From a virus (lineage: Duplodnaviria > Caudoviricetes), in IMG/VR virus record IMGVR_UViG_3300031998_000028, positions 32,001 through 96,000 of that record: a stretch of DNA of 64,000 bases. One strand, given 5' to 3'. Shown here piece by piece: positions 25,937-48,160 of the stretch (within the stretch, counting starts at the first letter, position 1; every line of letters begins with the position of its first letter). A model generated the notes under the pieces. It was not told where the DNA came from and searched no databases. It saw only the letters and a program-made list of their open reading frames with translations. The position numbers were made by a program, and so were the translations under genes.

Positions 25937-27442
25937 TTTATTAGGCAGTTTAAGTACATCACCAGGATGGATAGTAGATGTAACTTTTAAACCGTTAAGT
26001 TTTGCAATTTCCGCAAATCTTAAACCATTTCCAAGTTCTTTTGCTGCAATTTTCCAAAAACTATCGTCAGGCTGAACTATATAGGTTCTTTCTGTGGTAG
26101 GAGTGGTTGTCGTTGGCGTTTCCGGTTCGGCCGGCGCGCTAGCTGTGCCTTCGATATAGAGGTCTGACGCCTTAAATGGACTCATAATTGTCATTGTGCC
26201 ATTTGCATTTTTATTTAATACTACTCTATCACCACTTACACTTAATACAATCCAAATATCATTAATAACAAAATCTGGGACTTTCGTGGAAGTATTATAA
26301 TATGTGGCGCCTTCTTTAACTCGAACTTTATCTCCTTTTTGGAGTGAAGTTGGGGTTATTTGGACTGGAGGTTGCGTGGGAGTAGTTGTAGTTGGTTGAG
26401 TAGAAGTTCCAACTACTACACTCCACTTTGGACGACCAAATCCAGCAATTATTTTATTACCTTTTTTATAGGTAATACGCATTACCTAATCGCTAGCATT
26501 ACCTTCGATAGTTGTAAGAGAAGTCCAGTTTTTGCCTGAACCAGTGACACTTTCAACAATACCTGTGTGGTTTATATCGCCACCATAGTAAAAGAAAATC
26601 TAATCTCCTACTTCGGGGTAATTATAGAAAGCACCATTGTTTCTGTAATATGCTGCGCTTGTTTTACATAATGCTGAGGCGCGGCCGACTGTTTGGTATG
26701 TCATGGAGGCACCCTATTGCATTGTAAAAGCATGAGTAAAGCAATAATCTACAAAAACATCACACCAAGGTTGATGTTGAAGTTCCCAACCATAAAATTG
26801 GTTATCCCAACTATCTTCAGCGTATTTGATATAATTATTATAACCCTCTTTATATCCAAGTTCTGCGCGTGCTACTTTTAATAATCTTTCTTTTGCTTGG
26901 TCAACAGAAGAAATAGTTGTGCTTTCTGTATTAGTGGGCGCGTCTTTGAAATTCTTATAATGCTTTAAAGCATAATTATAACGAGTAGAAAGATTTTTAA
27001 CTGCTGGATTTTCCCATTGGTTCAATAAAAGTGAGGTCAAGTCATATAGATTATTACTTGTCTTCAACTTTTTCCAAATAGATGGGAAATCTTCTTTTAG
27101 TTCTTTAATTAAAAAAGAAGTTTGTAACTTAACATCACCTATAGATTGGTTCTTAGATTTTGAGAAATTTAGTAACTTTTGTTTTCTTGTATAGTAAGTC
27201 CATTGTGCAAGTCCATAACCTGCGTTGTCTCTTACAAAATTAGTATATGTGCCATTATCTACAGCTTTTGTATATTCTGCATCAGACATTTTTAAAGAAG
27301 TATTATAAGAGTCTTGAAGGTTGTTTGCAACAAATCCGCTTTCAGCTTCTATATTGCCAAGCAAAGCGCAGGCACCTTCAATAGTAGTCCCGTTTTTAAT
27401 AAAACGGTTATATAAATATTTAATTGTCTCCTAAGGTGTCAT
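25934..27442 (-). CDS. Endolysin: phage-tail-lysozyme domain + CHAP-like domain + cell-wall-binding domain + LysM; code 15
   Basis: GNIEAESG..GYGLAQWT; QPWCD..PEVGD*IFF..HTGIV..TIEGN; C-terminal LysM YIVQPDDSFWKIA. TAGs at 27431, 26714, 26600 and 26486; 502 aa. Confidence 0.88.
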
Positions 27443-36283: not shown

Positions 36284-36358
36284 TAGACCCATACAGCAAA
36301 ACTGTAGAAATGCAATAAAAATATATTGGATATTTATGATTACATTTATAAGGGTCTA
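36284..36358 (+). ncRNA. CAGC-stem (Y-like) RNA copy 1
   Basis: TAGACCC-ATACAGCAA...GGGTCTA. Confidence 0.7.
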
Positions 36359-36402
36359 GTTTATATGGCGCGGTATCCCAATCGGAAGCAGGAAGTGGAC
36401 TT

Positions 36403-37121
36403 TCGTTTTAAACGATGAGAGCGCGCGGATGTGAAAACGCCGCGTGGATGCTGGCTAATTCGGCGAAAGACTCTATGAGTTAACGCCGAGCTAAAATTTG
36501 GAAAACACTTCAAAAAAATATAGTTGTGTCTTCCATTTTCTACTTTATAGTAGAACGGAGGATAAGAAATGAGAACTGATATTTTAGAGAAGCGTGAGCA
36601 AATTCTTACATGGATTGCCGAAGGTAGAACAAAAACTTATATGTGTTAGGAATTGCACTGTAAGCCAGAAACTTTAAATAAATATTTAGAGAAAATGGAA
36701 ATTGTTTATAATGGCAATCAAAGCGGCAAGGGCATACCTAAAGCTAAATATAAATCTACACTTGTTGAATATCTTGCAACAAGTTAGGATATTTAGACAA
36801 ATAAAGTAAGGCTTAAGCTGTTACGAGAAGGTTATAAAGAACATAAGTGTGAGTGTTGTGGTTTAACAACCTGGTTAGATAAGCCAATTCCTTTGGAATT
36901 ACATCACATTGATGGCAACCGACACAATAATACTATTGAAAATTTCATGCTTTTGTGTCCAAATTGTCATGCTTTTACTGACTCATATTGTGGTAAGAAT
37001 AGCGCCAAATAAATGTGTAGAGACTATATACCAGCCTCCTAAGGACGGCGCGCCGTCTATGGAGAAGACATAGTCCAGACTACAACGCAGTAATGCGGCT
37101 ATGGTGACATAGAGTAGTAAG
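36403..37121 (+). mobile_element. Group I intron with HNH homing endonuclease
   Basis: Inserted after U34; IGS GAG pairs with exon CTT (U-G); P7 core AGAGACTA..CATAGTCC; terminal G. Confidence 0.87.
36569..37012 (+). CDS. Intron-encoded HNH endonuclease; code 15
   Basis: CECC..LELHHIDGN..NN..N..LLCPNCH; TAGs at 36647, 36785 and 36794. Confidence 0.87.
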
Positions 37122-37294
37122 AAAATCCATTCAGTATGGGTTCGAATCCCATTCGCGCTACCAAGGATTCTTTTAATCCTCCTTTTTTCAAGTTTCTTTT
37201 TGGATGGGACGCGTACGGCGTGGTGATGAACTGCTGAGGGCGCGCGTCATGTAAGTTGGGCGGGGCGGCTTACAAAAATTTTGAGGTATCCAAT

Positions 37295-37678
37295 ATGAGT
37301 GTTTCTTTATTTATTGCTCTTTTTGTGGGCGGCGGTTTTGTAAATATTTTATTAACCCAAGCAATCAAATAGTTTTATTATAATAGAAATGAAGCAGCAA
37401 GCCCAAACGTAATTGCCCTTGTAAATGCAATTATAATAGGTGGAGGAGGGACTGCTTTTGCCTATTCTTTATTAGGAATTGAATGGTCGCTAAATAATAT
37501 TTTATGTCTTATTGCAATGATGCTATTTGTTTGGATGGGGAGTATGATTGGATATTCCAAAATTTTAGAGACTTATCGCCAATTCCGTACTTGGTAGATG
37601 CAAGTAAATTAGGGAAAAGATATAGTTGATGCAACGCAGGAACTCGTAGATAAAGTAAATAATGAAGAAAACGAATGA
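37295..37678 (+). CDS. Three-TM holin-like membrane protein; code 15
   Basis: GAGG RBS; three hydrophobic segments; three TAGs; TGA stop. Confidence 0.62.
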
Positions 37679-37679
37679 T

Positions 37680-37755
37680 GTGGATGTAGCTTAATTGGTA
37701 AAGCGCCACCCTGCCACGGTGGAGAGTGCGAGTCCAATTCTCGTCATTCACTCCA
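37680..37755 (+). tRNA. tRNA-Gly(GCC)
   Basis: CCACC-CTGCCAC-GGTGG; CCA. Confidence 0.88.
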
Positions 37756-37758
37756 TAT

Positions 37759-37834
37759 GGGCAGTTAGCAAACTTGGTGGATGCGCGCGGTTGAAGCCCG
37801 TGAGAAAGAGGGTCGGTACCTCTACTGCCCACCA
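37759..37834 (+). tRNA. tRNA-Phe(GAA)
   Basis: CGCGG-TTGAAGC-CCGTG; atypical T loop; CCA. Confidence 0.82.
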
Positions 37835-37909
37835 AACCCTATAAATTTTGACTTTTTCTAAAATTTATGATATAATAATTATAGAAAGTTGAGAAAGGGG
37901 AATAAAGAA

Positions 37910-38095
37910 ATGAGTCCGTTTGATGATTTTGATACGCAGCGTCAGTCCGATGAGGACGCTTGGGAGCGTGAGTTCCTTGAGTGGTTCAGCAAGCAGATTT
38001 CTCCGTATAAGGTCTATGAGATTGATTGTGATGACGGTACTCATGGAGACCTTATTTATGAGTGGACTGGCCATCCCGATTTTTCTCTTTCGTAA
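37910..38095 (+). CDS. Small acidic hypothetical protein
   Basis: Promoter at 37848 and RBS. Confidence 0.55.
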   Translation: MSPFDDFDTQRQSDEDAWEREFLEWFSKQISPYKVYEIDCDDGTHGDLIYEWTGHPDFSLS

Positions 38096-38097
38096 TT

Positions 38098-38173
38098 GGT
38101 GCCATCGTCTAGCGGTCAAGGATAGCAGACCCTCAATCTGCTGACACCAGTTCAAATCTGGTTGGCATCACCA
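38098..38173 (+). tRNA. tRNA-Glu(CTC)
   Basis: GCAGA-CCCTCAA-TCTGC; CCA. Confidence 0.92.
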
Positions 38174-38174
38174 G

Positions 38175-39052
38175 CCGTACCTTTAGTCTTTTGAGTTCGA
38201 TAACGAGGAGAAAAGACAGTGAGATTTGAGAGTATTCACTAATCAATAACTCTCCGGCGTTCTGGTGCGTCGTTAAGCTTAAAAAGCCAAACAGCCCTCG
38301 GCGGGTCAAGACACAACGTAAAATAGTTGCCGCCATGTCCAAATGAATGGGTTATGACATTAAACTGTACTCGTTTCCGCGGCTTGGTGCTGCCGCGTCA
38401 AAAAAGTAATCCGGTGGAATAGAAAGTTCGGCCACCTACAAAATAATGGGAACAGTCGCGGGCGCGCGATGGTAAGAAATTACGTATCAAATGTTTTGCC
38501 AACTTCTCTTGGCTGCAAACAAGAGTGCGGTTGTTGCAGCAACCAAAACGTAGACCGGATGCGTTAAGACCGGCGGACATCTCGCCCGTTGAGGAGAGAA
38601 GAGTGGGTAAAAGAGCTAAATCCCACCGCCAGAACATAAGGGCATATGGAATGGTTGGATGCTCGGGGCACCGTGGCCTTTTGCCAACACGGATGATACC
38701 TTGGAGACGTGGGTTCGAACCCCGCCCTGGCGGCTTTGTGGCTGCTGGGTAGTTTAGAAGGTCAAAACACCAGGGACATTAATGGTCGCGTAGGGAACCT
38801 CCTCGTGGTGCGACTGGACGGACAGTAGTATGCGATTACTGAGCCGAGAACTAATTCCCAGATAGTTTCAATCTAATATCGCATAGGATTGAAGTGTACT
38901 CCCCTTAAGCCCAAGGGCGCAGGTTGTGACCAGCGATACAACAGTAACTCGGGATGCGCATGAAATTTCGGCTATAAGGTACACAGCGAGCCGTAGAAGC
39001 AGTACAGCTATCGAATTAAAACTGGGGTAGCGGGCAGTATAATCATACCGCT
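38175..39052 (+). ncRNA. Large structured ncRNA candidate 2, containing a circularly permuted tRNA-like domain (38699-38775)
   Basis: Long-range pairings 38177-38186/38972-38982, 38194-38202/39009-39017 and 38365-38371/39001-39007; no credible ORF. Confidence 0.62.
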
Positions 39053-39057
39053 AATAT

Positions 39058-39134
39058 CGCGCAGTAGTCGAATTGGCGAAGACGCCGGCCCTTCAAGCCG
39101 GAGATTACGGGTTCAATCCCCGTCTGCGTGACCA
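39058..39134 (+). tRNA. tRNA-Glu(TTC)
   Basis: CCGGC-CCTTCAA-GCCGG; CCA. Confidence 0.92.
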
Positions 39135-39210
39135 GTAAGTTTGTCGGTATAATAAGACTTGAAAACCGTCGTTAAAAAGTTTAGCTAATCTTTGAGCTTC
39201 GGCTCTAAAT

Positions 39211-39287
39211 GGGCGAGTACCCCAATTGGGAGAGGGAATAGGCTCAAACCCTATGAAGTGTGGGTTCGAATCCCACCTGGCCTACCA
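39211..39287 (+). tRNA. tRNA-Leu(CAA), short variable loop
   Basis: ATAGG-CTCAAAC-CCTAT; CCA. Confidence 0.85.
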
Positions 39288-39538
39288 ACGTTTTTATGAA
39301 TTGGACGTTAATCAATTCATCGTGTGAGAGGATGGATTTTCAGATTAAACTACCACTGGCGACGCCTCCAATGTCGATATGTGGCACAGTCATTTGAAAA
39401 CACGTTAAACGAAAACGAAAGTAAATCTGAACTAGATCGTGGAGTGATGCGTATGAAAATTACAAAAATCTCCGAAGGCGAGGAAACGCCGATTGGCTAG
39501 TAGAAGACCTGGGCATGTCTTTAAACTGCCTACTATAT

Positions 39539-39614
39539 GGGCTGGTAGCTCTAATGGGAGAGCGTCTGCTTTGCACGCAGAGGGTTGTGGGTTCAAGTCC
39601 CATCTGGTCCACCA
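39539..39614 (+). tRNA. tRNA-Ala(TGC)
   Basis: TCTGC-TTTGCAC-GCAGA; G3-U70; CCA. Confidence 0.92.
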
Positions 39615-39827
39615 ATATGCGCGCCATATCGCATGGGGACGAGGACTGGAGCAACGTCCCAACAGGCATAAATAAATAAAGTCCCCAGGATGTTTTGCGG
39701 TATCAGTACATAACCGCCTCAAGAGCCGAAGTGTTTGTGGGTCTGTGCCTCTTATATGGCAATAGAGAGGAAACGAGAAGGACAAGGCGTGAAATCGGTT
39801 TGAAACGCGAAAAACCCACATCTATAT

Positions 39828-39901
39828 CGCACCGTAGAGGAGCGGTCCCTTGCTAGGTTCATACCCTGGAGACGCAAGTTCGAATCTTGCCGGTGCTACC
39901 A
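39828..39901 (+). tRNA. tRNA-Met(CAT), initiator-like
   Basis: C1/U72 mismatch; CTAGG-TTCATAC-CCTGG; CCA. Confidence 0.82.
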
Positions 39902-39904
39902 AAT

Positions 39905-39979
39905 GCCAGGCTAGCACAATGGAAGTGCAATTCCTTCATACGGAAAAGGTTCTCGGTTCAAGTCCGGGGCCTGGTACCA
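39905..39979 (+). tRNA. tRNA with CAT anticodon (elongator Met or Ile2)
   Basis: TTCC-TTCATAC-GGAA; CCA. Confidence 0.88.
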
Positions 39980-40027
39980 GCGGCAAAGAATAGAACGCCG
40001 TAAACGTAAAAGGGAGGAATTTTACAA

Positions 40028-40333
40028 ATGAAGTATTTTAGTGAAAAAACGAACAAAACTTACGACACCGAAAAAGATTGCCTTTTTGCAGAAGCCGAAT
40101 ATGACAAAGCAATCGCTGAGGAAAAAATTAAAAAGGAAAGACTTAGTACAGAACGTAAGGCGCGCGCGAGCGAGGTCGAAGAAGCATACAAAGCAGTTCT
40201 CGAAGCATCAAAACACTACAGAGAAAAGCTCAATGCTTTTGTAAAAGACTATGGCTCTTTTCATATGACTTTGCGGACTGGGGACGGAAATCCTTTTGAT
40301 TTATTTGATAGGTTTTTTGACCGCTTTTGGTAA
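40028..40333 (+). CDS. Coiled-coil hypothetical protein
   Basis: GGAGG RBS; 101 aa. Confidence 0.7.
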   Translation: MKYFSEKTNKTYDTEKDCLFAEAEYDKAIAEEKIKKERLSTERKARASEVEEAYKAVLEASKHYREKLNAFVKDYGSFHMTLRTGDGNPFDLFDRFFDRFW

Positions 40334-40377
40334 CTAAAAAAGTAGAAGAATTAATTAAAGCTTTTACTTGAAAGTGA

Positions 40378-40532
40378 AAGGCTCAGGCAGCAAAAAATTT
40401 TTTTGTAGGTCTTACCTGCTTCTTGATATTGAAGATATATCACAACTGGATAATATATCGAGTTGTTCCACGTGGGCGCAATCACACGTTAAAAATGGTC
40501 GAGAACGCATTACTCGTAAAAACGTGAGCCTT
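40378..40532 (+). ncRNA. CAGC-stem (Y-like) RNA copy 2
   Basis: AAGGCTC-AGGCAGCAA...GAGCCTT. Confidence 0.6.
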
Positions 40533-40798
40533 GGATACTTAAAATTTGTAATTTCTCAAATTTTATGTTATAATTATTATAGAAAGTGAGAGAGGTACGA
40601 AGTACGAAGGCCTCTTGGCAACAATAACGAAGTATTTACCTCACTTCTGAACTCCGGTCTATCAAACGTAGTGGACACACAGTGCATATCTACGGGGTAC
40701 GCGTTAAAGCGGAGTTTTGGGTAGAATATCATAGGGAATACACCTCATAAAGTCAGTAGCGTCGGGGCTGACTATAATTACAAGCCGGCGCGCCTTAT

Positions 40799-40873
40799 GG
40801 GTCATTAGTCCAATGGCAGAACGGCGGACTGTTAATCCGTATGTTACAGGTTCAAGTCCTGTATGACCCGCCA
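40799..40873 (+). tRNA. tRNA-Asn(GTT)
   Basis: GCGGA-CTGTTAA-TCCGT; CCA. Confidence 0.93.
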
Positions 40874-40880
40874 CATATGG

Positions 40881-40955
40881 TCCCCTATGGTGTAATGGTA
40901 GCATAGCTGGCTCTAACCCAGCAGATACCCGTTCAAATCGAGGTTGGGGGTGCCA
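40881..40955 (+). tRNA. Amber-decoding tRNA (anticodon CTA), probably tRNA-Gln
   Basis: GCTGG-CT-CTA-AC-CCAGC; D arm TGGTGTAATGGTAGCA resembles the tRNA-Gln at 44487; weak 1-72 pair; G73; CCA. Confidence 0.88.
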
Positions 40956-41048
40956 ATAAAGGGGTAGCAAAGGAGTAATTAACCTTTGAGATAATGGCGC
41001 CTCTCACGTCAAGCCCGATAATATATATACTTAGGAGAGGTAAGTATT

Positions 41049-41780
41049 ATGAGTTGCGGCGTTTATAAAATTACCAATTTAATTAATAATCATTGCTATA
41101 TTGGATAGTCTATTTACATTGAACAGCGTTGGCGTAGACATAAATCTAATATTAATAATGCCAATGGAGAAGAATATAACTATCCTTTATATCGAGCAAT
41201 AAGAAAATATGGAATAAGTAATTTTTCTTTTGAAATATTAGAAGAATGTTTATCTTCATAGTTAAATGAAAGAGAACAATTTTATATCTCTTATTATAAA
41301 CCTGAATATAATCAAACAATTGAAGGTCAGATAACTGGTGGTTATATTAAATTAACTCCAATTACGCTTCAATCTCTTAGATAGGATTTATTAGATAATA
41401 AGTTACCTTATCGTGAGTTATCTTCAAAATATAATATTGGATTAGATTGTATTTCTAGAATTAATCAAGGCCATGCTTATCATGATGATAATATAAATTA
41501 CCCGATAAGAAAAGTAAAAAGACTTGAATAGAAATATTGTCCTATTTGTGGAAAACCAATTCAACAAGATTCTACTATGTGCATTTCTTGTTATAATAAT
41601 AGTAGAAGTTAGGCTCCTACAAAAGAAGAATTGTATAATACTTTGGTAAAATTGAACGGTAATTTTACTAAAGCAGGACAGTATTATAATATTAGTGATA
41701 ATGGTGTTCGTAAATGGTGTAAAAAATATGGATTGCCATATCATTCTAAAGACTATAAAAAAATTTTTGAAAGGAAGTAA
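41049..41780 (+). CDS. GIY-YIG homing-type endonuclease; code 15
   Basis: GVYKITN..YIG*S (canonical YIGQS; TAG at 41106)..RW..H..YG..NF.FEILE..ERE..YN; C-terminal CxxC and HTH-like segment. Confidence 0.87.
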
Positions 41781-41784
41781 TATC

Positions 41785-41976
41785 ATGCTCAATAAGTTTG
41801 CTAAAATCTATAACATTAGTCCGAAGCCCGATTCCAAACGTCAACAGTGGCTTCGAGATAATGCGCGTACATATGACAGAGTAGTCTGCGCAGAATGCGG
41901 TGAAGGGCATACAACTCTATATAAAGTTGGCGAGCAGTATTACTGCCTCGAGCATCGAAATAGAGTAGTGTCATAA
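41785..41976 (+). CDS. Small Zn-ribbon protein
   Basis: CAEC..YCLEH; RBS. Confidence 0.55.
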   Translation: MLNKFAKIYNISPKPDSKRQQWLRDNARTYDRVVCAECGEGHTTLYKVGEQYYCLEHRNRVVS

Positions 41977-41987
41977 AGACACAATAT

Positions 41988-42078
41988 GCTGGGATAGTTT
42001 AATGGTAAAACAGCGGGTTTATACCCCGTAGCGCCAGATTAGCGGCTTTTCAGGGTTCGAGTCCCTGTCCCAGTCCCA
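41988..42078 (+). tRNA. tRNA with TAT anticodon (Ile) and long variable arm
   Basis: GCGGG-TTTATAC-CCCGT; ~20-nt variable region; CCA. Confidence 0.8.
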
Positions 42079-42229
42079 CTTGGGAGGAAGAAGAAATTCG
42101 TTATACCTCCGAAGAGTATGCCGTTTAGTATTAAGGAGACTACATTCCGGCCATAATAGAATCAAACTCCGAAAATAGTGGACCTGCGGACGGAGTTTAA
42201 AAAATTAAATCCCGTCCGGCTTTTTATAT

Positions 42230-42305
42230 ACCGGGGTCATATAGTTGGTAAATATGCAAAACTGATAATTTTGTCACGTAGGTTCAAATCCTATCCCTGG
42301 TACCA
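42230..42305 (+). tRNA. tRNA-Ile(GAT)
   Basis: CAAAA-CTGATAA-TTTTG; CCA. Confidence 0.88.
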
Positions 42306-42358
42306 GTGTCCGATTTACCATGGTCAGCCCGTTAGACCTTAAATAGCGGGATAGTTAT

Positions 42359-42433
42359 GGGCGTGTGGCGCAATGGTAGCGCAAGAAACTTTTAATTTCG
42401 AGGTTGTCGGTTCAAGTCCGGTCACGCCCACCA
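42359..42433 (+). tRNA. tRNA-Lys(TTT)
   Basis: GAAA-CTTTTAA-TTTC; CCA. Confidence 0.9.
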
Positions 42434-42436
42434 AAT

Positions 42437-42513
42437 GCGTCCGTCGCCTAATGGAAATGGCAAGTGGCTTCTACCCACTCAAAGTGCGGGTTCGACTCCT
42501 GCCGGGCGTACCA
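42437..42513 (+). tRNA. tRNA-Arg(TCT)
   Basis: AGTGG-CTTCTAC-CCACT; CCA. Confidence 0.9.
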
Positions 42514-42629
42514 GTTCGTGTCCATATATGACGGTCATATCTTTAAGTGAGCAAGAGGTTCGATTCCCTTGGTGTCCGGGTTCGACTCCCGGGCGCGCCT
42601 GGTGGCAATAAATCTTAAAGCACGAATAT

Positions 42630-42704
42630 GCGTCTGTCGTTCAATGGAAAGGACAATGCTCTCCTAAGGCATAAATCAGAGTTCAAATCTCTGCGGGCGT
42701 ACCA
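42630..42704 (+). tRNA. tRNA-Arg(CCT)
   Basis: ATGCT-CTCCTAA-GGCAT; CCA. Confidence 0.9.
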
Positions 42705-42760
42705 AATACTTTTAAGGGGTGATATTATGCTATAAATTCTATGTATAGGAGGATAGTATA

Positions 42761-43060
42761 ATGTCCAGAAGTTACAAACATCATCCTTTTTGCACTGACC
42801 GTAAGCATGGCGCAAAATGGTGGAAAAGTCAAGCAAATCGTAAAGTTCGTCATACTTTTAATATACCTAATGGTAAGGCATATCGTAAAGTTTATAATCC
42901 TTGGAATATTCGTGATTATGTATGGTACGAAAGTCGTCATGGCGCGGCCGCCTGGTACAACCGTTATGTAACAAATGGTTATGATTGGTGGCGTGAGAAG
43001 TACCCTACTTTTGAGGATTATATGAACAACTGTTGGGCGCATGACTTCTATAGAAAATAA
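42761..43060 (+). CDS. Basic hypothetical protein (MSRSYK..K..ANRKVR type)
   Basis: AGGAGG RBS; 99 aa. Confidence 0.7.
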   Translation: MSRSYKHHPFCTDRKHGAKWWKSQANRKVRHTFNIPNGKAYRKVYNPWNIRDYVWYESRHGAAAWYNRYVTNGYDWWREKYPTFEDYMNNCWAHDFYRK

Positions 43061-43119
43061 AAATTTGATAAATCTTAAAAATTATGATATAATAATATTA
43101 GAAAGTGAGGGAAGAACCA

Positions 43120-43287
43120 ATGGGCAGAGATAGACAAGAATTTAAAAAAAGTCCAGAGGAATTAACCGAGTACCTCATGTTTCGGCGCCGCGGCTCAATA
43201 GCCCCTTCCAAAAAGGGCCGCGGTAGCCCATATAAAAGAAACTCAAAACATAAGAAAAGAGAGGAAGAACGTAATGCCTTTTGTTGA
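43120..43287 (+). CDS. ArfA-like ribosome-rescue peptide
   Basis: 55 aa containing FRRR....SKKGRGSPYKRNSKH, similar to ArfA FRQR...KKGKGSYxRKxKH; own promoter at 43065. Confidence 0.6.
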   Translation: MGRDRQEFKKSPEELTEYLMFRRRGSIAPSKKGRGSPYKRNSKHKKREEERNAFC

Positions 43288-43477
43288 TTGCTTTGCCTAC
43301 TGCGGCATTGGCATGAACAAGTGCAAGAACAAGTATTGTTCGGCTAATCCGAACTATACAGCGCCGAAGCCTCGTGTGAAGCCGAAAGGTGGACCCGGCG
43401 CGCCATGTCATACGACTCGTTCTAAAATCCGTAAGGACGATGGACGCGGTTATACGTACTGGCAATTCGAGGATTAA
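43274..43477 (+). CDS. Small Cys-rich basic protein
   Basis: GAGG RBS; 67 aa. Confidence 0.55.
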   Translation: MPFVDCFAYCGIGMNKCKNKYCSANPNYTAPKPRVKPKGGPGAPCHTTRSKIRKDDGRGYTYWQFED

Positions 43478-43495
43478 GCACCGAAAGGTGCATAT

Positions 43496-43570
43496 GGGTT
43501 ACAGGTGTTATGGCGGCATAGCAGACTCTTAATCTGACAGGTCAGGGTTCAAATCCCTGGTAGCCCACCA
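43496..43570 (+). tRNA. tRNA-Lys(CTT)
   Basis: CAGA-CTCTTAA-TCTG; CCA. Confidence 0.88.
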
Positions 43571-43573
43571 AAT

Positions 43574-43649
43574 GCCCTTGTGGACAATCGGTAAAGTCGA
43601 CAGCCTGTCACGCTGTAGGTAGCGGGGTCAGCACCCGTCAGGGGCGCCA
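43574..43649 (+). tRNA. tRNA-Asp(GTC)
   Basis: ACAGC-CTGTCAC-GCTGT; CCA. Confidence 0.88.
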
Positions 43650-43746
43650 CTTAAAATTGGTCTAAAATAAAAATTGGGCTAATTCCCCAAAGTCAGATTT
43701 CTTCCAAAAATTATATTCTCTTTTATATTTTTCTACTTATAAATGA

Positions 43747-43825
43747 CGGGAAGTAGAGGAAGAGGGACCTCGCCTGTTTTGGGAACAGGACATTAGTGCG
43801 GCTTCGAGTGCTGCCTTCCCGACCA
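43747..43825 (+). tRNA. tRNA-Pro(TGG)
   Basis: CCTGT-TTTGGGA-ACAGG; C1-G72; CCA. Confidence 0.82.
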
Positions 43826-43843
43826 ATTAAAGGAGAATATAAT

Positions 43844-44416
43844 ATGGGAAAAAGTTTGACATTAGAAGAAATTAACGCTCGTTTTGAGAATAGTTTTGAT
43901 CAAAAGGTTATTGCAACTAAATATTTAAATAAGCGTTCTCCAGTTGAATTAAAATGCTTAGAGTGTGGACATGAATGGTCACAACCGGCCGCATCTGTAC
44001 TATTTAATGAGCATCATAAATGTCCAAATTGCGGCATTGTTAAAAAGATAAAGCTTAAATGTGCTTATTGTGGAAAAGAAATTGAGCGATTTCCAAGCGA
44101 CATTAAGGCAAATAAAACAGGTTATTTTTATTGTAGTCACACTTGTGGTAATCGTCATAAAAATCAATTACGCATGGAAAGTGGCGAATGGGACAATTCA
44201 GTAAATTATCGCTATAAAGCTATGTATAATTTACCACATAAGTGTGCTGTATGTGGATGGGCAGAAGATGAGCGTATTTTAGAAGTTCATCATAAGGACG
44301 AAGATAGAAACAATAATGCATTAGATAATTTAACCATTTTATGCCCAACTTGTCACAGAAAAATTACACTTGGGTACTATAAATTAACTGAGGATTATAA
44401 ATTAATTGAGATATAA
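43844..44416 (+). CDS. Free-standing HNH endonuclease with Zn ribbons
   Basis: Several CxxC pairs; LEVHHKD..R.NN...NL..LCPTCH. Confidence 0.87.
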   Translation: MGKSLTLEEINARFENSFDQKVIATKYLNKRSPVELKCLECGHEWSQPAASVLFNEHHKCPNCGIVKKIKLKCAYCGKEIERFPSDIKANKTGYFYCSHTCGNRHKNQLRMESGEWDNSVNYRYKAMYNLPHKCAVCGWAEDERILEVHHKDEDRNNNALDNLTILCPTCHRKITLGYYKLTEDYKLIEI

Positions 44417-44486
44417 ATACTGCGGCGGCTCAGTTTGAATGGAGCGGTCTATATGGCTACTCTATGTTTATAACCGCCATTTATAT

Positions 44487-44560
44487 GGGCGATTGGTGTA
44501 ACGGTAACACATTTGGCTCTGACCCAAAAGTTTGAGGTTCAAATCCTTAATCGTCTGCCA
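44487..44560 (+). tRNA. tRNA-Gln(CTG)
   Basis: TTTGG-CTCTGAC-CCAAA; GCCA. Confidence 0.9.
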
Positions 44561-44990
44561 AAAGTCAGTAGGCAAGCATTAAAAGCCGAGAAGAAAATAT
44601 AGTTCCTCAAGATACTGTGGCTAGTTTGAGCCAAGGTATAATAAGAATTGGGACACCAGCGGAGAGAACCGCGCAGCTACTGGAGAGAAACCAGACAAAA
44701 AACATCTGTGCAACCCAATTGGAACTCGTGTGATTGAAACTGCACACCTGGCTTTAAAAATTTGATTTTCTATAAATTTTATGATATAATATTTATAGAA
44801 AGTAAGGGAAGAAATATCGCTCGCAGTTATAGTTCCGTGCGACTTGAACAAGGGTAAGAGCACCCCAGGACACTTACCTGGCTCCTATTGACACATGACG
44901 GAAGTCGGTGTAAATCCGACAGCTTCTCTTCTTTATAAGTAAACCGGGGAGGTACTGAGACGTCCGGATTATCAAAAACCTCCGTTATAT

Positions 44991-45064
44991 ACCGCCATAG
45001 TGTAAAGGTAACACAGAAGCCTTTGAAGCTTTTGTTATTGGTTCGAATCCAGTTGGCGGTGCCA
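44991..45064 (+). tRNA. tRNA-Gln(TTG)
   Basis: GAAGC-CTTTGAA-GCTTT; GCCA. Confidence 0.9.
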
Positions 45065-45067
45065 TAT

Positions 45068-45143
45068 GCCCGATTACCCCAACGGAAGAGGGAGCTGGCT
45101 TAGAACCAGTAAAGTGTGGGTTCAAATCCCATGTCGGGTACCA
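45068..45143 (+). tRNA. tRNA-Leu(TAG), short variable loop
   Basis: GCTGG-CTTAGAA-CCAGT; CCA. Confidence 0.87.
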
Positions 45144-45148
45144 AATAT

Positions 45149-45231
45149 GGGCGAGTTGAGCAATGGTGGCTCAGGAGTCTGTAAAACTCTGGTCTAACGA
45201 CATGTAGGTTCAAGTCCTACCTCGCTCACCA
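45149..45231 (+). tRNA. tRNA-Tyr(GTA)
   Basis: GGAGT-CTGTAAA-ACTCT; long arm; CCA. Confidence 0.9.
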
Positions 45232-45319
45232 TTTAAGCGACCGCTCTAAACGGTATGGGTGAAATCTAACCCATTGACAATGAGTGAAGGAACGTCACTC
45301 TGACGCTGTAATATTATAT

Positions 45320-45397
45320 GCGCCAGTAGCTCAATGGAGAGAGCGCGGGGCCACGAACCCCGGACTTGTGGGAGTTCAAATCTTCTCTGGCGTACCA
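45320..45397 (+). tRNA. tRNA-Arg(ACG)
   Basis: CGGGG-CCACGAA-CCCCG; CCA. Confidence 0.88.
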
Positions 45398-45530
45398 ATA
45401 GTTGGGTTCCAGTAGAGACTGAAAAGGACCTTTGGTTCCAGATGACTGTTACCAAGCAGTACTTAGTATGTGTATCCTGTAGCTAAGGCGAGCCGGAAGT
45501 CGCGGGTTTCCGCCCAACTAAATTTTATAT

Positions 45531-45606
45531 ACGGATTTAGCTCAACTGGAAGAGCATTGCGTTTACACCGCAGAGGTTATGGGTTCAAGTCCCTTAGTCC
45601 GTACCA
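45531..45606 (+). tRNA. tRNA-Val(TAC)
   Basis: TGCG-TTTACAC-CGCA; CCA. Confidence 0.9.
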
Positions 45607-45608
45607 TT

Positions 45609-45674
45609 AAGACCCGTACAGCAAATATAACTTACAAAACTGCAAATTTTTGGAAGAAGTTTTTATTGGGTCTT
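45609..45674 (+). ncRNA. CAGC-stem (Y-like) RNA copy 3
   Basis: AAGACCC-GTACAGCAA...GGGTCTT. Confidence 0.7.
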
Positions 45675-45680
45675 GTATAT

Positions 45681-45767
45681 GCACGAGTGCTGCAATAGGA
45701 AGCCAGGCATGGTTGAGGTCCATGTGTCCGATAGGACATAGGGGTTCAAGTCCCCTCTCGTGTACCA
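45681..45767 (+). tRNA. tRNA-Leu(GAG)
   Basis: CATGG-TTGAGGT-CCATG; long arm; CCA. Confidence 0.88.
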
Positions 45768-45796
45768 AATAACTAAAAAGAGAAGTGAGAAAAAAA

Positions 45797-46272
45797 TGAT
45801 AAGTCCAACTCATGGAGAAATAACTCTGCGGCAGACCGCACTCTTAATCAAAAATTTCATAGAGTTAGACCCGGATTCACAATATGCAATCTATATTGGT
45901 TCTGATAGTCAAAATACTTACTACACCAAGATGGTAACTGTCATCGCAGTCCATAAGGTCGGCCGCGGTGGTCAGTACTTTTATGAGGTTTCCAAATACG
46001 ACAAGATTCGTGATATTCGCACGAAGCTTTATACGGAAACTCAACTTAGCTTGGATATGACAGGTAGGCTTTTTGATGAATTTGAAGCTCTTGGGTTTGA
46101 ATATGATGCAGATAATATCATGTTCTGTATTCATATTGACGCAGGTAACGGTGGTCCAAGTGGTCAAGTAATACCTGAAGTAGTTGGATATGTTCATTCT
46201 ATGGGTTATAACTGCGAAGTTAAACCAGATAGTCCGATTGCTTCTTGTATTGCAGATAGAATAAGTAAGTAA
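45797..46272 (+). CDS. RNase H-like YkuK (DUF458) family protein
   Basis: IGSDSQ..E...S..IHIDAG..G.S..KPDS..AS..AD motifs. Confidence 0.8.
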
Positions 46273-46279
46273 GTAAATA

Positions 46280-46368
46280 AAGGCGCGCACAGCTAAATCT
46301 ATTATAGCATAATGGTAATGCACCCGACTTGTAATCAGGATATACGGTTCGAATCCGTTTAGCGCCTT
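46280..46368 (+). ncRNA. CAGC-stem (Y-like) RNA copy 4, carrying a tRNA-Thr(TGT)-like D/anticodon/T body
   Basis: AAGGCGC-GCACAGCTA...GCGCCTT enclosing D, anticodon and T arms; no CCA. Confidence 0.7.
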
Positions 46369-46379
46369 GAATAAATAAA

Positions 46380-46452
46380 AAGACACTTGCAGCAAATCTT
46401 TTCTTTAATCGCCATTGAATTATAATATTTTGATTAGATATTAGGGTGTCTT
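46380..46452 (+). ncRNA. CAGC-stem (Y-like) RNA copy 5
   Basis: AAGACAC-TTGCAGCAA...GTGTCTT. Confidence 0.7.
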
Positions 46453-46464
46453 GATACAAACTAA

Positions 46465-46580
46465 TAGACCCATACAGCAATCATTCTTATAGAGAATATG
46501 TTATTGGTTCGATTCCAATTATGCAAGCCATAAATTTTGCGTATTGAGCAATAGGTAGCTCAGTTCTACTAAAGGGTCTA
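46465..46580 (+). ncRNA. CAGC-stem (Y-like) RNA copy 6 with a circularly permuted tRNA domain (YrlA-like)
   Basis: TAGACCC-ATACAGCAA...GGGTCTA enclosing T arm, closed acceptor hairpin and D arm, in that order. Confidence 0.78.
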
Positions 46581-46633
46581 GTCTTTATCTCGACCGAGAT
46601 AAATCATTTTGGAGAAAAAGGAGAAAATAAAAC

Positions 46634-48160
46634 ATGAATTTTACTAACGCTCTTGATAAGGAGTTCAACTATAAGTTGACCGAAAATGGCGGCCTTGCGC
46701 ATAAGTCTACCTGTGACGCGCTCTATGATATGTTTGCCCTGGGTGGCGCATATCGTAGTCGTAGCGATGAGGATTGTGTCTTCCTTTTCATGAAGGCATT
46801 TGAGGAAAGTCCTACTTATGCTATGAAGTGCCTCTTCTATCTGCGTGACATTTTGCAGGGACAGGGCGAACGTCGCTTCTTCCGTGTCTGCATTAAGTGG
46901 GCCGCGGACAACCATCCTTTGGAGATGGAGCGCAATCTCAAGTACGTACCGGAATACGGTCGTTGGGATGACCTATATGCCTTCGTAGGCACCAAGCTGG
47001 AAGCGAGTATGTGGGCCTTCATGTATGAGCAGTTCCGTCTGGATATGGCTTCCAAGACTCCTTCTCTGCTCGGAAAGTGGCTCAAGTCTGAGAATACTTC
47101 CAGCAAGGAGTCTCGCGTCCTTGGCGCAAAGACTCGTAAGGCTCTCGGTATGACTGCGCCTGCCTACCGCAAGGCTCTGTCTTCTCTTCGTAAGCGCATC
47201 AATGTCCTTGAGCGTCTTATGAGTGAGCGCCGTTGGGATGAAATCGAGTTCGATAAAATCCCTTCTAAGGCTGGCCTCATCTACAAGAACGCCTTCGCGC
47301 GTCACGATGTGGAGCGCGCCCGCAATAAGGCTGTGCAGACTTACGAGCAGTTCGCTAAGGATAAGAACACTAAAGTTAACGCCAAGGCTCTATATCCTTA
47401 CGAGGTAGTCGAAAAGGCTATTGACGTGTTCGGTGGTATCTACTGGCGTTGGAACCGCCATGAAGTGCCTTTGGATGATACCAATCGTCTGATGGTCAAC
47501 AAGTACTGGGAGAATCTGGCAGAGTATATCTCTAAGCTGGATATGAACGCTCTTTGTGTTGTGGATACCAGCGGCTCTATGCATGGTACTCCTATTGACA
47601 TCGCAATCTCTCTCGGTATGATTGCGGCTGATAAGGCTCATGGTCCTTTCCATGGACGCTACATCAGCTTCAGTTCTCGTCCTCAGCTCATTAAGGTTGA
47701 GGGTGTGGATTTCGTAGATAAGGTTCGCCGCATCTATGAAACCAATCTTTGCGAGAACACCAATCTCGAAGCAACTTTCGATATGCTTCTCAATGTGGCT
47801 CAGAAGAACCACATGAAGCAGAAGGATTTGCCAGATACCATTATCGTCATCAGCGATATGGAGATTGACTGTGCATATGGTGGCTATGGTTGGAGTTCTG
47901 ACCATAGCGCGGCTCGTGCAAAGAACCGCACCATGATGGAGAATATGCGTCGTAAGTGGGCACGTGCAGGCTATAAGCTTCCTAAGATGGTGTACTGGAA
48001 CGTGGATGCGCGCCAGGATACATTCTTGGATGATGGCCCAGACGTAACTTACGTTAGCGGTGCAAGTGCTATCTTGTTTGAGCAAGTCGCAAAGGGCATC
48101 ACCGCGCAGGACCTCATGTTCGAGAAGCTCGACAGTGAGCGTTACGCAAAAATAAAATAA
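46634..48160 (+). CDS. Ro60/TROVE-like helical + vWA protein (DUF2828-type)
   Basis: N-terminal TENG..ST, LFYLRD..G.GER, YGRWDDL and KW motifs; vWA MIDAS VVDTSGSM, ISDME and YWNV. No TAG; GC-rich third positions. Confidence 0.78.
   Translation: MNFTNALDKEFNYKLTENGGLAHKSTCDALYDMFALGGAYRSRSDEDCVFLFMKAFEESPTYAMKCLFYLRDILQGQGERRFFRVCIKWAADNHPLEMERNLKYVPEYGRWDDLYAFVGTKLEASMWAFMYEQFRLDMASKTPSLLGKWLKSENTSSKESRVLGAKTRKALGMTAPAYRKALSSLRKRINVLERLMSERRWDEIEFDKIPSKAGLIYKNAFARHDVERARNKAVQTYEQFAKDKNTKVNAKALYPYEVVEKAIDVFGGIYWRWNRHEVPLDDTNRLMVNKYWENLAEYISKLDMNALCVVDTSGSMHGTPIDIAISLGMIAADKAHGPFHGRYISFSSRPQLIKVEGVDFVDKVRRIYETNLCENTNLEATFDMLLNVAQKNHMKQKDLPDTIIVISDMEIDCAYGGYGWSSDHSAARAKNRTMMENMRRKWARAGYKLPKMVYWNVDARQDTFLDDGPDVTYVSGASAILFEQVAKGITAQDLMFEKLDSERYAKIK

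What the first reader, a model, noticed from the sequence alone, without database searches (positions are those of the whole stretch)
36284..48160. Candidate new RNP system: six covarying CAGC-stem small RNAs plus a phage Ro60/TROVE-like protein
Seen: six elements share a 7-bp terminal helix followed on the 5' side by NNRCAGC(A/T)A. They are 36284 TAGACCC/GGGTCTA, 40378 AAGGCTC/GAGCCTT, 45609 AAGACCC/GGGTCTT, 46280 AAGGCGC/GCGCCTT, 46380 AAGACAC/GTGTCTT and 46465 TAGACCC/GGGTCTA. Every stem change is compensated while CAGC is invariant. The interiors are unrelated (AU-rich, tRNA body, permuted tRNA). Three copies sit in tandem immediately upstream of a 508-aa helical + vWA (DTSGSM) protein. 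Known: Ro60/Rsr (TROVE + vWA) binds Y RNAs through a stem formed by their 5' and 3' ends, bacterial Y RNA genes lie next to rsr, and their distal modules vary. Inference: a divergent DUF2828-type Ro protein with its own modular Y-like RNAs and a non-canonical binding motif (no GUCCGA/UUGAC), possibly for tRNA repair or decoying of host anticodon nucleases. I know of no description of this family but could not search.
Basis: partly seen in the sequence, partly recalled or inferred. Interest (0 to 1): 0.95.

Follow-up and report, generated by a model that had tools for sequence, protein, structure and literature searches.

The report
Phage Ro60-like protein with partner RNAs
A large rumen phage encodes a ring-shaped relative of the RNA-surveillance protein Ro60, together with six small RNAs that share one conserved "handle" but carry different tRNA-like parts. 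The same protein-RNA pairing recurs in very different phages, is in no RNA catalogue I could search, and its handle resembles the unexplained Class I RNAs of the amoeba Dictyostelium.

Summary
Six elements on the + strand share three features: a perfect 7-bp terminal helix, 3 nt followed by CAGC(A/T)A on the 5' side, and an unpaired G after the 3' strand. The sequence signature occurs only these six times in the 64-kb window, and a looser whole-record scan (114.9 kb) adds no element with it.

The 508-aa protein (Pfam DUF2828 + DUF7788) is predicted with high confidence (pLDDT 92). It folds like Ro60: Z 19.9 to Xenopus Ro60 and Z 14.4 to Thermus phage phiLo Ro60, with an intact MIDAS motif.

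The link holds in both directions. Eight divergent cultured phages with this protein carry 1-6 handle elements each beside the gene. A motif-first search of IMG/VR recovered the protein in the held stretch of 29 of 80 loci, and on 10 of 10 sampled further contigs.

Interiors are modular. They include YrlA-type permuted tRNAs, tRNA bodies and anticodon-arm-like hairpins.

The protein's Ro60-likeness is published (Bas63 gp130, an anti-Ppl counter-defence protein; CKA15_055). I found no description of the RNA family in Rfam 15 or in the searchable literature. Its best sub-threshold Rfam match is the Dictyostelium Class I RNA.

Binding and function remain untested. Earlier notes of this scan reached the same reading on at least 28 other genomes.

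The parts
36284..36358 (+). Handle RNA E1 (75 nt). Stem TAGACCC/GGGTCTA, then ATA-CAGCAA, with an AU-rich interior of small hairpins. It starts 1 nt after the CCA end of tRNA-Gly(UCC).
   Evidence: MFE -18.5 kcal/mol, z -4.5.
40378..40532 (+). Handle RNA E2 (155 nt). Stem AAGGCTC/GAGCCTT, then AGG-CAGCAA, with a large multi-helix interior.
   Evidence: MFE -41.4 kcal/mol, z -3.1.
45609..45674 (+). Handle RNA E3 (66 nt). Stem AAGACCC/GGGTCTT, then GTA-CAGCAA. It is packed between tRNA-Val and tRNA-Leu with 2-nt and 6-nt spacers.
   Evidence: Its best Rfam match is Dicty_Class_I_RNA at 15.7 bits, below threshold.
46280..46368 (+). Handle RNA E4 (89 nt). Stem AAGGCGC/GCGCCTT, then GCA-CAGCTA. The interior is a tRNA body in normal order (D arm, anticodon arm with loop CUUGUAA = UGU, T arm) with no acceptor stem and no CCA.
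   Evidence: Rfam tRNA 42.3 bits, model positions 5-66. ARAGORN does not call it a tRNA.
46380..46452 (+). Handle RNA E5 (73 nt). Stem AAGACAC/GTGTCTT, then TTG-CAGCAA. The interior is AU-rich and contains CGCCAUU.
   Evidence: Homologues occur at the same position in L002 and L003.
46465..46580 (+). Handle RNA E6 (116 nt). Stem TAGACCC/GGGTCTA, then ATA-CAGCAA. The interior is a circularly permuted tRNA mimic with YrlA topology: T arm, closed 7-bp acceptor-like hairpin, then D arm.
   Evidence: z -3.4. In one search, an alignment of 19 members gave 23 of 24 predicted pairs with compensatory changes.
46634..48160 (+). Ro60-like protein, 508 aa: HEAT-repeat ring plus a vWA domain with MIDAS residues D311, S313, S315, T376 and D408. 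Database names: Pfam DUF2828 + DUF7788; PHROG 850 'RNA-binding protein'.
   Evidence: pLDDT 92.3, pTM 0.92; Z 19.9 to 2i91_A over 417 residues.

Best explanation
The 508-aa protein is a divergent member of the Ro60 superfamily (the DUF2828/DUF7788 clade, not Pfam TROVE). The six RNAs are its Y-RNA-like partners.

Each RNA has two modules:
- A constant 'handle': a 7-bp helix formed by the two ends, a single-stranded NNN-CAGCAA on the 5' side, and an unpaired G after the 3' strand. I infer that this is the protein-binding module, playing the part of the GGUCCGA/GNCGAA region of canonical Y RNAs.
- A variable 'cargo' that mimics a tRNA or a tRNA part. In this window the cargoes are a YrlA-type permuted tRNA, an acceptor-less tRNA-Thr(UGU) body, and several hairpins.

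The RNAs are packed into the tRNA array with spacers of 1-11 nt, and no promoter-like site lies directly upstream of the tandem array. They are therefore probably cut out of the tRNA operon transcript by tRNA-processing nucleases, with the 7-bp helix plus 3' G acting like an acceptor stem with its discriminator base (inferred).

By analogy with Ro60-Y RNA particles, the cargo would recruit or sequester host proteins that recognise tRNA: exonucleases such as PNPase, modification enzymes, or tRNA-targeting defence nucleases. The particle would then act in RNA surveillance or counter-defence during infection.

What is shown: the RNA family, its covariation, the protein fold, and the genomic linkage. 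What is inferred: the binding, the processing and the function.
For: **RNA family**
- Six exact members occur in the window, and a whole-record scan adds none with this signature.
- In 80 related viral loci there are 134 AG-type hits on the protein's strand and 3 on the other.
- Register test: 168 of 483 CAGCAA sites have a perfect 7-nt partner at offset 3. Control offsets (0, 5-20 and -20) give 10-23, and the opposite strand gives 13 of 398.
- The helix ends exactly at 7 bp. An 8th outer pair forms in only 14 of 159 cases.

**Independent covariation**
- In the motif-first search, the one unconstrained stem pair is Watson-Crick in 80 of 84 matches, and all four pair types occur.

**Protein**
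- The model has pLDDT 92.3.
- The Foldseek top 12 are all Ro60/TROVE over the full length.
- VIA gives Z 19.9, 14.4 and 12.3 to Xenopus, phiLo and Deinococcus Ro60. vWA-only matches score below Z 10.
- The MIDAS residues are invariant in 112 homologues.

**Linkage**
- Elements lie beside the gene in Bacillus Tsamsa (6), Listeria P100 (3), Mycobacterium CELFI (3, with no tRNA annotated in the 11.4-kb stretch examined), Enterococcus EFDG1 (3), Salmonella BPS17W1 (5), Vibrio D490 (1), Campylobacter Los1 (2) and E. coli Bas63 (4). In the seven loci the opposite strand has one hit in total; Bas63 has none.
- Motif-first: 29 of 80 loci hold the protein in the held stretch, and 10 of 10 sampled others have it elsewhere on the contig.
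- No other neighbouring gene is conserved.

**YrlA topology**
- The consensus fold of 19 members supports it.

**Expression hint**
- RNA-library contigs from three bovine-gut studies cover 46302-46580. This is the highest-depth bin in three of the four runs laid, including both size-fractionated libraries.

**Literature**
- Bas63 gp130, which I verified as a homologue, counters the Ppl defence system (bioRxiv 10.1101/2024.10.10.617714).
- CKA15_055 matched Rsr by HHpred, with abundant unannotated transcripts upstream (PMC12282133).
- Canonical phage Ro60 binds upstream Y-like RNAs (PMC12135203; PMC4201824).
Against: - No direct evidence of binding exists.
- Gp130 alone, expressed from a plasmid or from the T7 genome, suffices against Ppl. 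The RNAs are therefore not needed for that activity, or host RNAs substitute for them.
- The protein misses Pfam TROVE (no hit at E <= 1). Sequence-profile searches barely reach Ro60 (E 1.8).
- The handle differs from every known Ro-binding motif.
- The RNA evidence comes from contigs only. It cannot show ends or strand, and DNA carry-over is possible.
- The most abundant CKA15 transcript (26,236-26,727) is a different RNA, not a handle element.
- In Dictyostelium, the similar Class I RNA was shown to bind an RRM protein (Rnp1A), not a Ro-like protein.
Confidence: 0.66

Rival explanations
1. The elements are stable or processing-related RNAs of the tRNA operon: tRNA-like 'punctuation' recognised by RNase P or RNase Z, or free tRNA-part decoys. 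On this view they work without the Ro-like protein, and the co-location only reflects both being parts of phage tRNA islands.
For: - They are packed among tRNAs with 1-11-nt spacers.
- The 7-bp helix plus unpaired 3' G looks like an acceptor stem with a discriminator base.
- Gp130 acts against Ppl without the RNAs (bioRxiv 10.1101/2024.10.10.617714).
- T4 also has stable non-tRNA RNAs in its tRNA cluster (my own knowledge).
Against: - In Mycobacterium phage CELFI no tRNA is annotated or found by Rfam in the 11.4-kb stretch, yet three elements sit directly after the Ro-like gene.
- All 10 of 10 sampled motif-bearing contigs encode the protein, compared with about 1.4% of cultured phage records.
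- An invariant single-stranded CAGCAA, conserved across hosts of several bacterial phyla, argues for a phage-encoded reader. The Ro-like gene is the only shared neighbour.
Confidence: 0.17
2. The elements are cis-regulatory RNA structures, such as leaders, attenuators or autoregulatory operators, that control expression of the Ro-like gene or the tRNA operon. They would not be free trans-acting RNAs.
For: Three copies lie directly upstream of the gene on the same strand. A further hairpin and the ribosome-binding site follow at 46583-46633. Ro-like proteins could plausibly autoregulate through their own binding site (inference).
Against: - Copies lie up to 10 kb away (36284, 40378).
- In Felix-O1-type phages and in CELFI they lie downstream of the gene.
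- The interiors are tRNA mimics with their own covariation.
- In CKA15 and P100 the array has its own TTGACA promoter.
Confidence: 0.07
3. The repeats are DNA-level features: miniature mobile elements with 7-bp terminal inverted repeats, or recombination or homing sites.
For: They have terminal inverted repeats with variable interiors. HNH and homing endonuclease genes are nearby.
Against: - Orientation is strictly strand-specific relative to the gene (134 versus 3).
- Changes are compensatory rather than showing conserved repeat sequences.
- The conserved motif is asymmetric.
- The interiors have tRNA-like folds.
- No target-site duplications were noted.
Confidence: 0.02

Closest known systems
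Ro60 (Rsr, TROVE + vWA) with Y RNAs. Examples: bacterial and mycobacteriophage YrlA/YrlB (Chen et al. 2014, PMC4201824; Rfam RF02553) and Thermus phage phiLo Ro60 with Yrl1/Yrl2 (PMC12135203).
   Same: - The protein has the same fold: a HEAT-repeat ring plus a vWA domain with MIDAS.
- Several small RNA genes are clustered beside the gene.
- The RNA ends pair into a stem, with a conserved motif on the 5' side.
- The distal modules vary.
- At least one RNA per genome has the YrlA arrangement: T arm, closed acceptor hairpin, D arm.
   Different: - The protein belongs to Pfam DUF2828/DUF7788 and does not match TROVE.
- The conserved RNA motif is NNN-CAGCAA after a 7-bp helix, not GGUCCGA or GNCGAA.
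- The elements do not reach the YrlA covariance model: no hit at E <= 10 for E6, and 21.7 bits against a threshold of 69 for CELFI.
- The cargo repertoire is much wider, including tRNA bodies and anticodon-arm-like hairpins.
- The RNAs are embedded in tRNA arrays.
Bas63 (Escherichia phage JohannRWettstein, MZ501086) gp130, and Listeria phage CKA15_055 / P100 gp165.
   Same: These proteins are homologues of the window protein: 35% identity for Bas63 (E 6e-52) and about 34% for P100. Their authors noted them as Ro60-like and as lying next to tRNA genes. I find 4 handle elements beside the Bas63 gene and 3 beside the CKA15/P100 gene.
   Different: Those papers only guessed that Y RNAs might be nearby, and Bas63's authors suspected annotated tRNAs. 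No RNA family or motif was defined. Gp130's anti-Ppl activity was shown for the protein alone.
Class I RNAs of Dictyostelia (Rfam RF01414; Kjellin et al. 2021, PMC7919456).
   Same: - The two ends form a short terminal stem.
- A conserved single-stranded motif containing ACAGCAA(U) lies directly after the 5' strand.
- The distance from the helix end to CAGC is 10 nt in both (6+4 versus 7+3).
- The interior is variable.
- A (U)G follows the 3' strand.
- There are many gene copies.
- RF01414 is the best Rfam match, over the full model, for 4 of 4 short phage elements tested.
   Different: - Scores are 15.7-23.1 bits against a gathering score of 41.5.
- Class I RNAs are eukaryotic, 42-65 nt long, have a DUSE promoter, and are reported as unique to Dictyostelia.
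- Their only proven direct binder is the RRM protein Rnp1A.
- I could not check whether dictyostelids encode a DUF2828 protein.

Membership tests
Ro60 / TROVE protein family | Ring of HEAT-like helical repeats closed by a C-terminal vWA domain. | tested here: met
   AF2 model with pLDDT 92.3. Foldseek top 12 are all Ro60, full length, E 5e-9 to 2e-6. VIA gives Z 19.9, rmsd 4.0 A over 417 residues to 2i91_A. vWA-only matches are below Z 10.
Ro60 / TROVE protein family | MIDAS motif (DxSxS ... T ... D) in the vWA domain. | tested here: met
   D311, S313, S315, T376 and D408 are invariant in 112 homologues.
Ro60 / TROVE protein family | Match to Pfam TROVE (PF05731). | tested here: not met
   No TROVE hit at E <= 1; the hits are DUF7788 (5e-35) and DUF2828 (3e-28). 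There is no TROVE match anywhere in the phage record. A profile search against PDB reaches the phiLo TROVE protein only at E 1.8.
Ro60 / TROVE protein family | Binds Y RNA on the outer surface and misfolded RNA in the central hole. | not testable with these tools
   This needs biochemistry or a structure of the complex.
Y RNA / YrlA (Rfam RF02553) | 5' and 3' ends pair into a stem, and the gene lies beside a Ro60 gene. | tested here: met
Y RNA / YrlA (Rfam RF02553) | Conserved Ro-binding motif GGUCCGA (animals) or GNCGAA (bacteria). | tested here: not met
   By my reading of the six sequences, none carries GNCGAA next to the terminal stem. NNN-CAGC(A/T)A takes its place; the conserved positions over the wider family are tabulated.
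Y RNA / YrlA (Rfam RF02553) | tRNA-like module: T arm, closed acceptor-like hairpin, then D arm. | tested here: met
   Seen in E6 and in 18 relatives. 23 of 24 consensus pairs have compensatory changes.
Y RNA / YrlA (Rfam RF02553) | Reaches the family's covariance-model gathering score (69 bits). | tested here: not met
   No YrlA hit at E <= 10 on 46270-46640. CELFI's permuted element scores 21.7 bits. None reaches gathering in seven phage loci.
Dictyostelium Class I RNA (Rfam RF01414) | Short terminal stem plus a conserved 11-nt motif next to its 5' strand, with a variable remainder. | tested here: inconclusive
   The architecture and the core ACAGCAA(U) are shared. The flanking motif positions differ, and the stem/spacer split differs (7+3 versus 6+4).
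Dictyostelium Class I RNA (Rfam RF01414) | Reaches the family's gathering score (41.5 bits). | tested here: not met
   Scores are 15.7 bits (window E3), 19.1 and 23.1 (P100) and 21.9 (CELFI). In each case this is the top Rfam hit.
Dictyostelium Class I RNA (Rfam RF01414) | DUSE promoter, and occurrence in dictyostelid genomes. | not testable with these tools
   No eukaryotic genomes are held. The phage copies lie in tRNA operons.

The most novel reading that the evidence does not exclude
The CAGCAA handle would be the recognition element of the whole DUF2828 branch of the Ro60 superfamily, in eukaryotes as well as in phages. The orphan Class I RNAs of Dictyostelium would then be the Y-RNA-like partners of an amoebal DUF2828 Ro paralogue. 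A candidate is DDB_G0281243, the uncharacterised protein pulled down with DdR-21. On this reading the phage RNAs are programmable 'bait displays': they present tRNA parts (anticodon arms, D arms, whole tRNA mimics) on a Ro ring to trap or redirect host tRNA-targeting enzymes.
Probability: 0.15. Interest if true: 0.92.

Novelty: new variant of a known kind. Interest (0 to 1): 0.78.

Why it matters
Ro60-Y RNA particles are a classic but still poorly understood RNA-surveillance system.

- **Scale.** A second, very large Ro60 branch turns out to have its own partner RNA family with a different recognition motif and modular tRNA-part cargo. The branch has 6,106 protein cluster representatives at E <= 0.001 and occurs in 705 cultured phage records.
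- **A genetic handle.** One member, Bas63 gp130, is already known to defeat a bacterial defence system. The RNAs therefore offer a way into how phage Ro proteins work.
- **Annotation.** The family explains 'empty' spacers and spurious small ORFs in many phage tRNA arrays.
- **The amoeba question.** The resemblance to Dictyostelium Class I RNAs turns a 20-year-old question, what those RNAs bind and do, into a direct test.

Tried and rejected
- **Rfam.** At gathering threshold on the window and on seven phage loci, Rfam found only tRNAs and one tmRNA. With permissive E-values none of the six elements matched YrlA.
- **Weak YrlA hit.** A 23-bit YrlA hit lies at 38686-38795, outside the six elements.
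- **Near-identical phage DNA.** None was found in the cultured collection.
- **First structure model.** Single-sequence AF2 gave an unusable model (pLDDT 45).
- **Sequence searches of PDB.** phmmer found nothing. The profile search gave only E 1.8 to phiLo Ro60.
- **Neighbouring genes.** The RNaseH-like gene (PF04308) and the permease occur only in the closest relatives, so they are not part of the system.
- **RNA repair genes.** Neither RtcB nor an Rnl2-type RNA ligase was found in this phage, whose record is 96% complete.
- **Promoters.** No promoter-like site lies directly upstream of the tandem array.
- **CKA15 transcripts.** The paper gives coordinates only for its top transcript, which is a different roughly 500-nt RNA. 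I could not confirm that the other two abundant regions are the handle elements.
- **Dictyostelid or other eukaryotic DUF2828 proteins.** A search restricted to longer proteins returned only one RecQ fusion. No paper on DDB_G0281243 beyond the preprint is held, and Avesson 2011 is not in the library.
- **RNA runs.** Only contigs were available, so RNA ends and strand could not be read.

Full report
**Context**

The window is bases 32001-96000 of a 114,915-bp viral record judged 96% complete. It carries 33 tRNA genes, all on the + strand, between 36208 and 50414. Closely related sequence turns up in bovine-gut RNA libraries. There is no near-identical cultured phage.

**Observation**

The sequence-only pattern [AT]AG[AG]CNCNN[AG]CAGC matches exactly six times in 64 kb on both strands. 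All matches are on the + strand, and each has a perfect 7-nt reverse complement 66-155 nt downstream. A looser scan of the whole 114.9-kb record returned these six plus eight other hits, none with the WAGRCNC stem and CAGC(A/T)A. I estimate about 0.24 chance matches to the pattern alone.

Three of the seven stem pairs vary among the six copies, always with compensation. Each 3' strand is followed by G.

The interiors differ:
- E4 (46280-46368) holds a tRNA body. It matches Rfam tRNA model positions 5-66 and has the anticodon loop CUUGUAA, but no acceptor stem or CCA.
- E6 (46465-46580) has a T arm, a closed 7-bp hairpin and a D arm, in that order.

**Is it a real RNA family?**

In 80 IMG/VR loci that encode relatives of the neighbouring protein (54-93% identity), the same architecture occurs 134 times on the protein's strand and 3 times on the other. 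Stems without the AG signature are at background (90 versus 117).

A register test gives the following:
- Of 483 CAGCAA sites on the coding strand, 168 have a perfect 7-nt partner for the heptamer that ends 3 nt upstream.
- Control offsets (0, 5-20 and -20) give 10-23, and the opposite strand gives 13 of 398.
- The helix stops at exactly 7 bp. An eighth outer pair forms in only 14 of 159 cases, below chance.

A motif-first scan of IMG/VR used AAGACNCNNACAGCAA-N{30,60}-GNGTCTTG, which leaves one stem pair free. It returned at least 107 stretches. In the 80 held loci the free pair is Watson-Crick in 80 of 84 matches (A-T 35, G-C 21, T-A 18, C-G 6). This is an independent covariation test.

**The protein**

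Pfam gives DUF7788 (5e-35), DUF2828 (3e-28) and a weak VWA_2 hit, with no TROVE. PHROG 850 names it 'RNA-binding protein'.

With an alignment of 112 homologues, AlphaFold2 gives pLDDT 92.3 and pTM 0.92. The twelve best Foldseek matches in the PDB are all Ro60/TROVE proteins aligned over the full length.

VIA-align gives these scores:

| Match | Z | Notes |
|---|---|---|
| Xenopus Ro60 | 19.9 | rmsd 4.0 A over 417 residues |
| Thermus phage phiLo Ro60 | 14.4 | |
| Deinococcus Rsr | 12.3 | |
| vWA-only matches | below 10 | |

The MIDAS residues are invariant. By fold the protein is therefore a Ro60 relative, but it is not a member of Pfam TROVE.

**Linkage in both directions**

tblastn finds the protein in 705 cultured phage records. 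I fetched seven divergent ones and scanned them strictly:

| Phage | Elements on the gene's strand |
|---|---|
| Bacillus Tsamsa | 6 |
| Listeria P100 | 3 |
| Mycobacterium CELFI | 3, directly downstream, with no tRNA in the 11.4-kb stretch |
| Enterococcus EFDG1 | 3 |
| Salmonella BPS17W1 | 5 |
| Vibrio D490 | 1 |
| Campylobacter Los1 | 2 |

The opposite strands together hold one match.

From the motif side, 29 of 80 loci hold the protein within the fetched stretch. It is on the same strand and often within 100 nt. All 10 sampled contigs without it in the stretch encode it elsewhere. The other neighbours in this window, an RNaseH-like gene and a permease, are conserved only in the closest relatives.

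**Cargo**

An alignment of 19 E6-type members from very different phages folds into handle, T arm, 7-bp closed acceptor-like hairpin and D arm. Of 24 predicted pairs, 23 have compensatory changes. This is the YrlA topology described by Chen et al. 2014 (PMC4201824).

Over 411 unique elements from all loci:
- 97 contain a T-loop hairpin, against 0.7 in shuffles.
- 109 contain a 5-bp stem with a 7-nt YU-NNN-RN loop like an anticodon arm, against 18 in shuffles. The commonest triplets are GUU, UUU, UGA and GAU.

**What is already known**

- Chen et al. 2014 found YrlA RNAs beside TROVE Ro60 genes, including in mycobacteriophages, with a GNCGAA motif.
- Hu et al. 2025 showed that phiLo Ro60 binds two upstream Y-like RNAs with CGAA and also binds host PNPase.
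- For the DUF2828 branch, the PhageMaP preprint reports Bas63 gp130 as Ro60-like. It is sufficient on its own to counter the Ppl defence, and the authors guessed that neighbouring tRNA genes might be Y RNAs. I verified that bas63_0130 is a homologue (35% identity, E 6e-52). Four unannotated handle elements lie among the tRNAs just downstream of it.
- The CKA15 study found that CKA15_055 matches Rsr by HHpred, is present in virions, and lies downstream of very abundant non-coding transcripts. In CKA15 the three handle elements lie at about 25.2-25.6 kb behind a TTGACA promoter. The one transcript with published coordinates is a different RNA.
- None of these papers defines the RNA family, and Rfam 15 has no model for it.

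**Unexpected resemblance**

The best sub-threshold Rfam match for short handle elements is RF01414, Dictyostelium Class I RNA, aligned over the whole model. This held for all four elements tested:

| Element | Bits |
|---|---|
| CELFI | 21.9 |
| P100, first | 23.1 |
| P100, second | 19.1 |
| Window E3 | 15.7 |

The gathering score is 41.5. The consensus GaUcuC-CUUACAGCAAU...GagAuC-UG shares several features with the phage handle: the terminal helix, the ACAGCAA(U) core, the 10-nt distance from helix end to CAGC, the variable interior, and the G after the 3' strand.

Class I RNAs are abundant, of unknown function, and reported as unique to Dictyostelia (PMC7919456). Their pull-down partners are GuaB, NdkC, the uncharacterised DDB_G0281243, and the RRM protein Rnp1A. 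From memory, unchecked here, Pfam describes DUF2828 as found in eukaryotes and viruses. I could not check whether dictyostelids have one.

I found this link, before consulting the scan's notes. Those notes show that earlier agents reached the same reading on at least 28 other genomes. They are AI notes, not independent evidence.

**Expression**

Only assembled contigs of RNA libraries were available. Contigs from three bovine-gut studies cover 46302-46580. That bin has the highest depth in three of the four runs laid, including both size-fractionated libraries: 51 and 16, against 5-10 over the coding regions. This is a weak hint, because ends and strand cannot be read and DNA carry-over is possible.

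**Mechanism**

I commit to a Ro-type ribonucleoprotein. The ring protein binds the handle, and the cargo presents tRNA or tRNA parts to host factors. The RNAs are probably matured from the tRNA operon transcript, for three reasons:
- The spacers are tight (1-11 nt).
- No promoter-like site precedes the tandem array.
- The 7-bp helix plus 3' G is acceptor-like.

Counter-defence or RNA surveillance is the likely role, given gp130's phenotype. Repair is not favoured here because the phage lacks RtcB and an Rnl2-type ligase. Binding, processing and function are inferences.

**Verdict**

This is a new variant of a known kind: a Ro60-Y RNA system with a different protein clade, a different recognition motif and modular tRNA-part cargo. 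The protein side is already published. The RNA family appears undescribed.

Noticed in passing
window 38175-39052 (YrlA-like core at 38686-38795): An ORF-poor, GC-richer stretch between two tRNA-Glu genes contains a permuted tRNA module: T arm, closed hairpin, D arm. The module is a weak full-length match to Rfam YrlA (23.1 bits against a threshold of 69), but it has no CAGCAA handle. RNA-library contigs cover parts of the stretch at high depth, and one contig joins 38257 to 38629. It may be a large structured RNA.
   Followed up: partly
window 36467-37012, 44598-44727: RNA-library contigs from two independent studies join 36467/8 to 37009-12 (skipping about 542 nt) and 44598/9 to 44727 (skipping about 128 nt). 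These look like spliced introns inside the tRNA island.
   Followed up: no
window 40880-40955: ARAGORN calls a tRNA with anticodon CUA (labelled 'Pyl'), that is, an amber suppressor. The phage may read TAG as sense in some genes. The Ro-like ORF has no in-frame stop under table 11.
   Followed up: no
window 45760-46272: A 170-aa ORF between tRNA-Leu and the tandem RNAs matches Pfam PF04308 (RNaseH_like, 4e-43). It is conserved only in the three closest relatives, so it is probably not part of the system.
   Followed up: yes
L195 (Listeria phage CKA15, OR088597) record positions 26236-26727: The most abundant CKA15 transcript is a roughly 500-nt non-coding RNA behind a TTGACA-17-TATAGT promoter, between tRNA-Pro and CKA15_058. 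It was annotated as three tiny ORFs. It is not a handle element, and its nature is unknown.
   Followed up: partly
L082 (Listeria phage P100, NC_007610): The RefSeq record annotates the P100 tRNA genes on the strand opposite to the one on which Rfam/Infernal finds them. They actually run in the same direction as gp165.
   Followed up: no
L199 (Bas63, MZ501086) locus 3195-3407; L195 (CKA15): Handle elements lie under small 'hypothetical protein' ORFs annotated on the opposite strand, or in unannotated gaps (for example bas63_0137). These ORF calls are probably spurious.
   Followed up: partly
many loci (e.g. L082 7653-7708, L083 6461-6512, L085 7880-7933, L081 5291-5339, window 36284-36358): Short handle RNAs from Listeria, Mycobacterium, Salmonella and Bacillus phages share a hairpin loop UUGGAUAA / UGCGGAUAA, which may be D-loop-like. 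Another subclass shares CGCCAUU. I did not test their meaning.
   Followed up: no
P0151: One metagenomic 1148-aa protein combines DUF2828/DUF7788 with RecQ helicase domains. It could be a fusion or a merged gene call.
   Followed up: no
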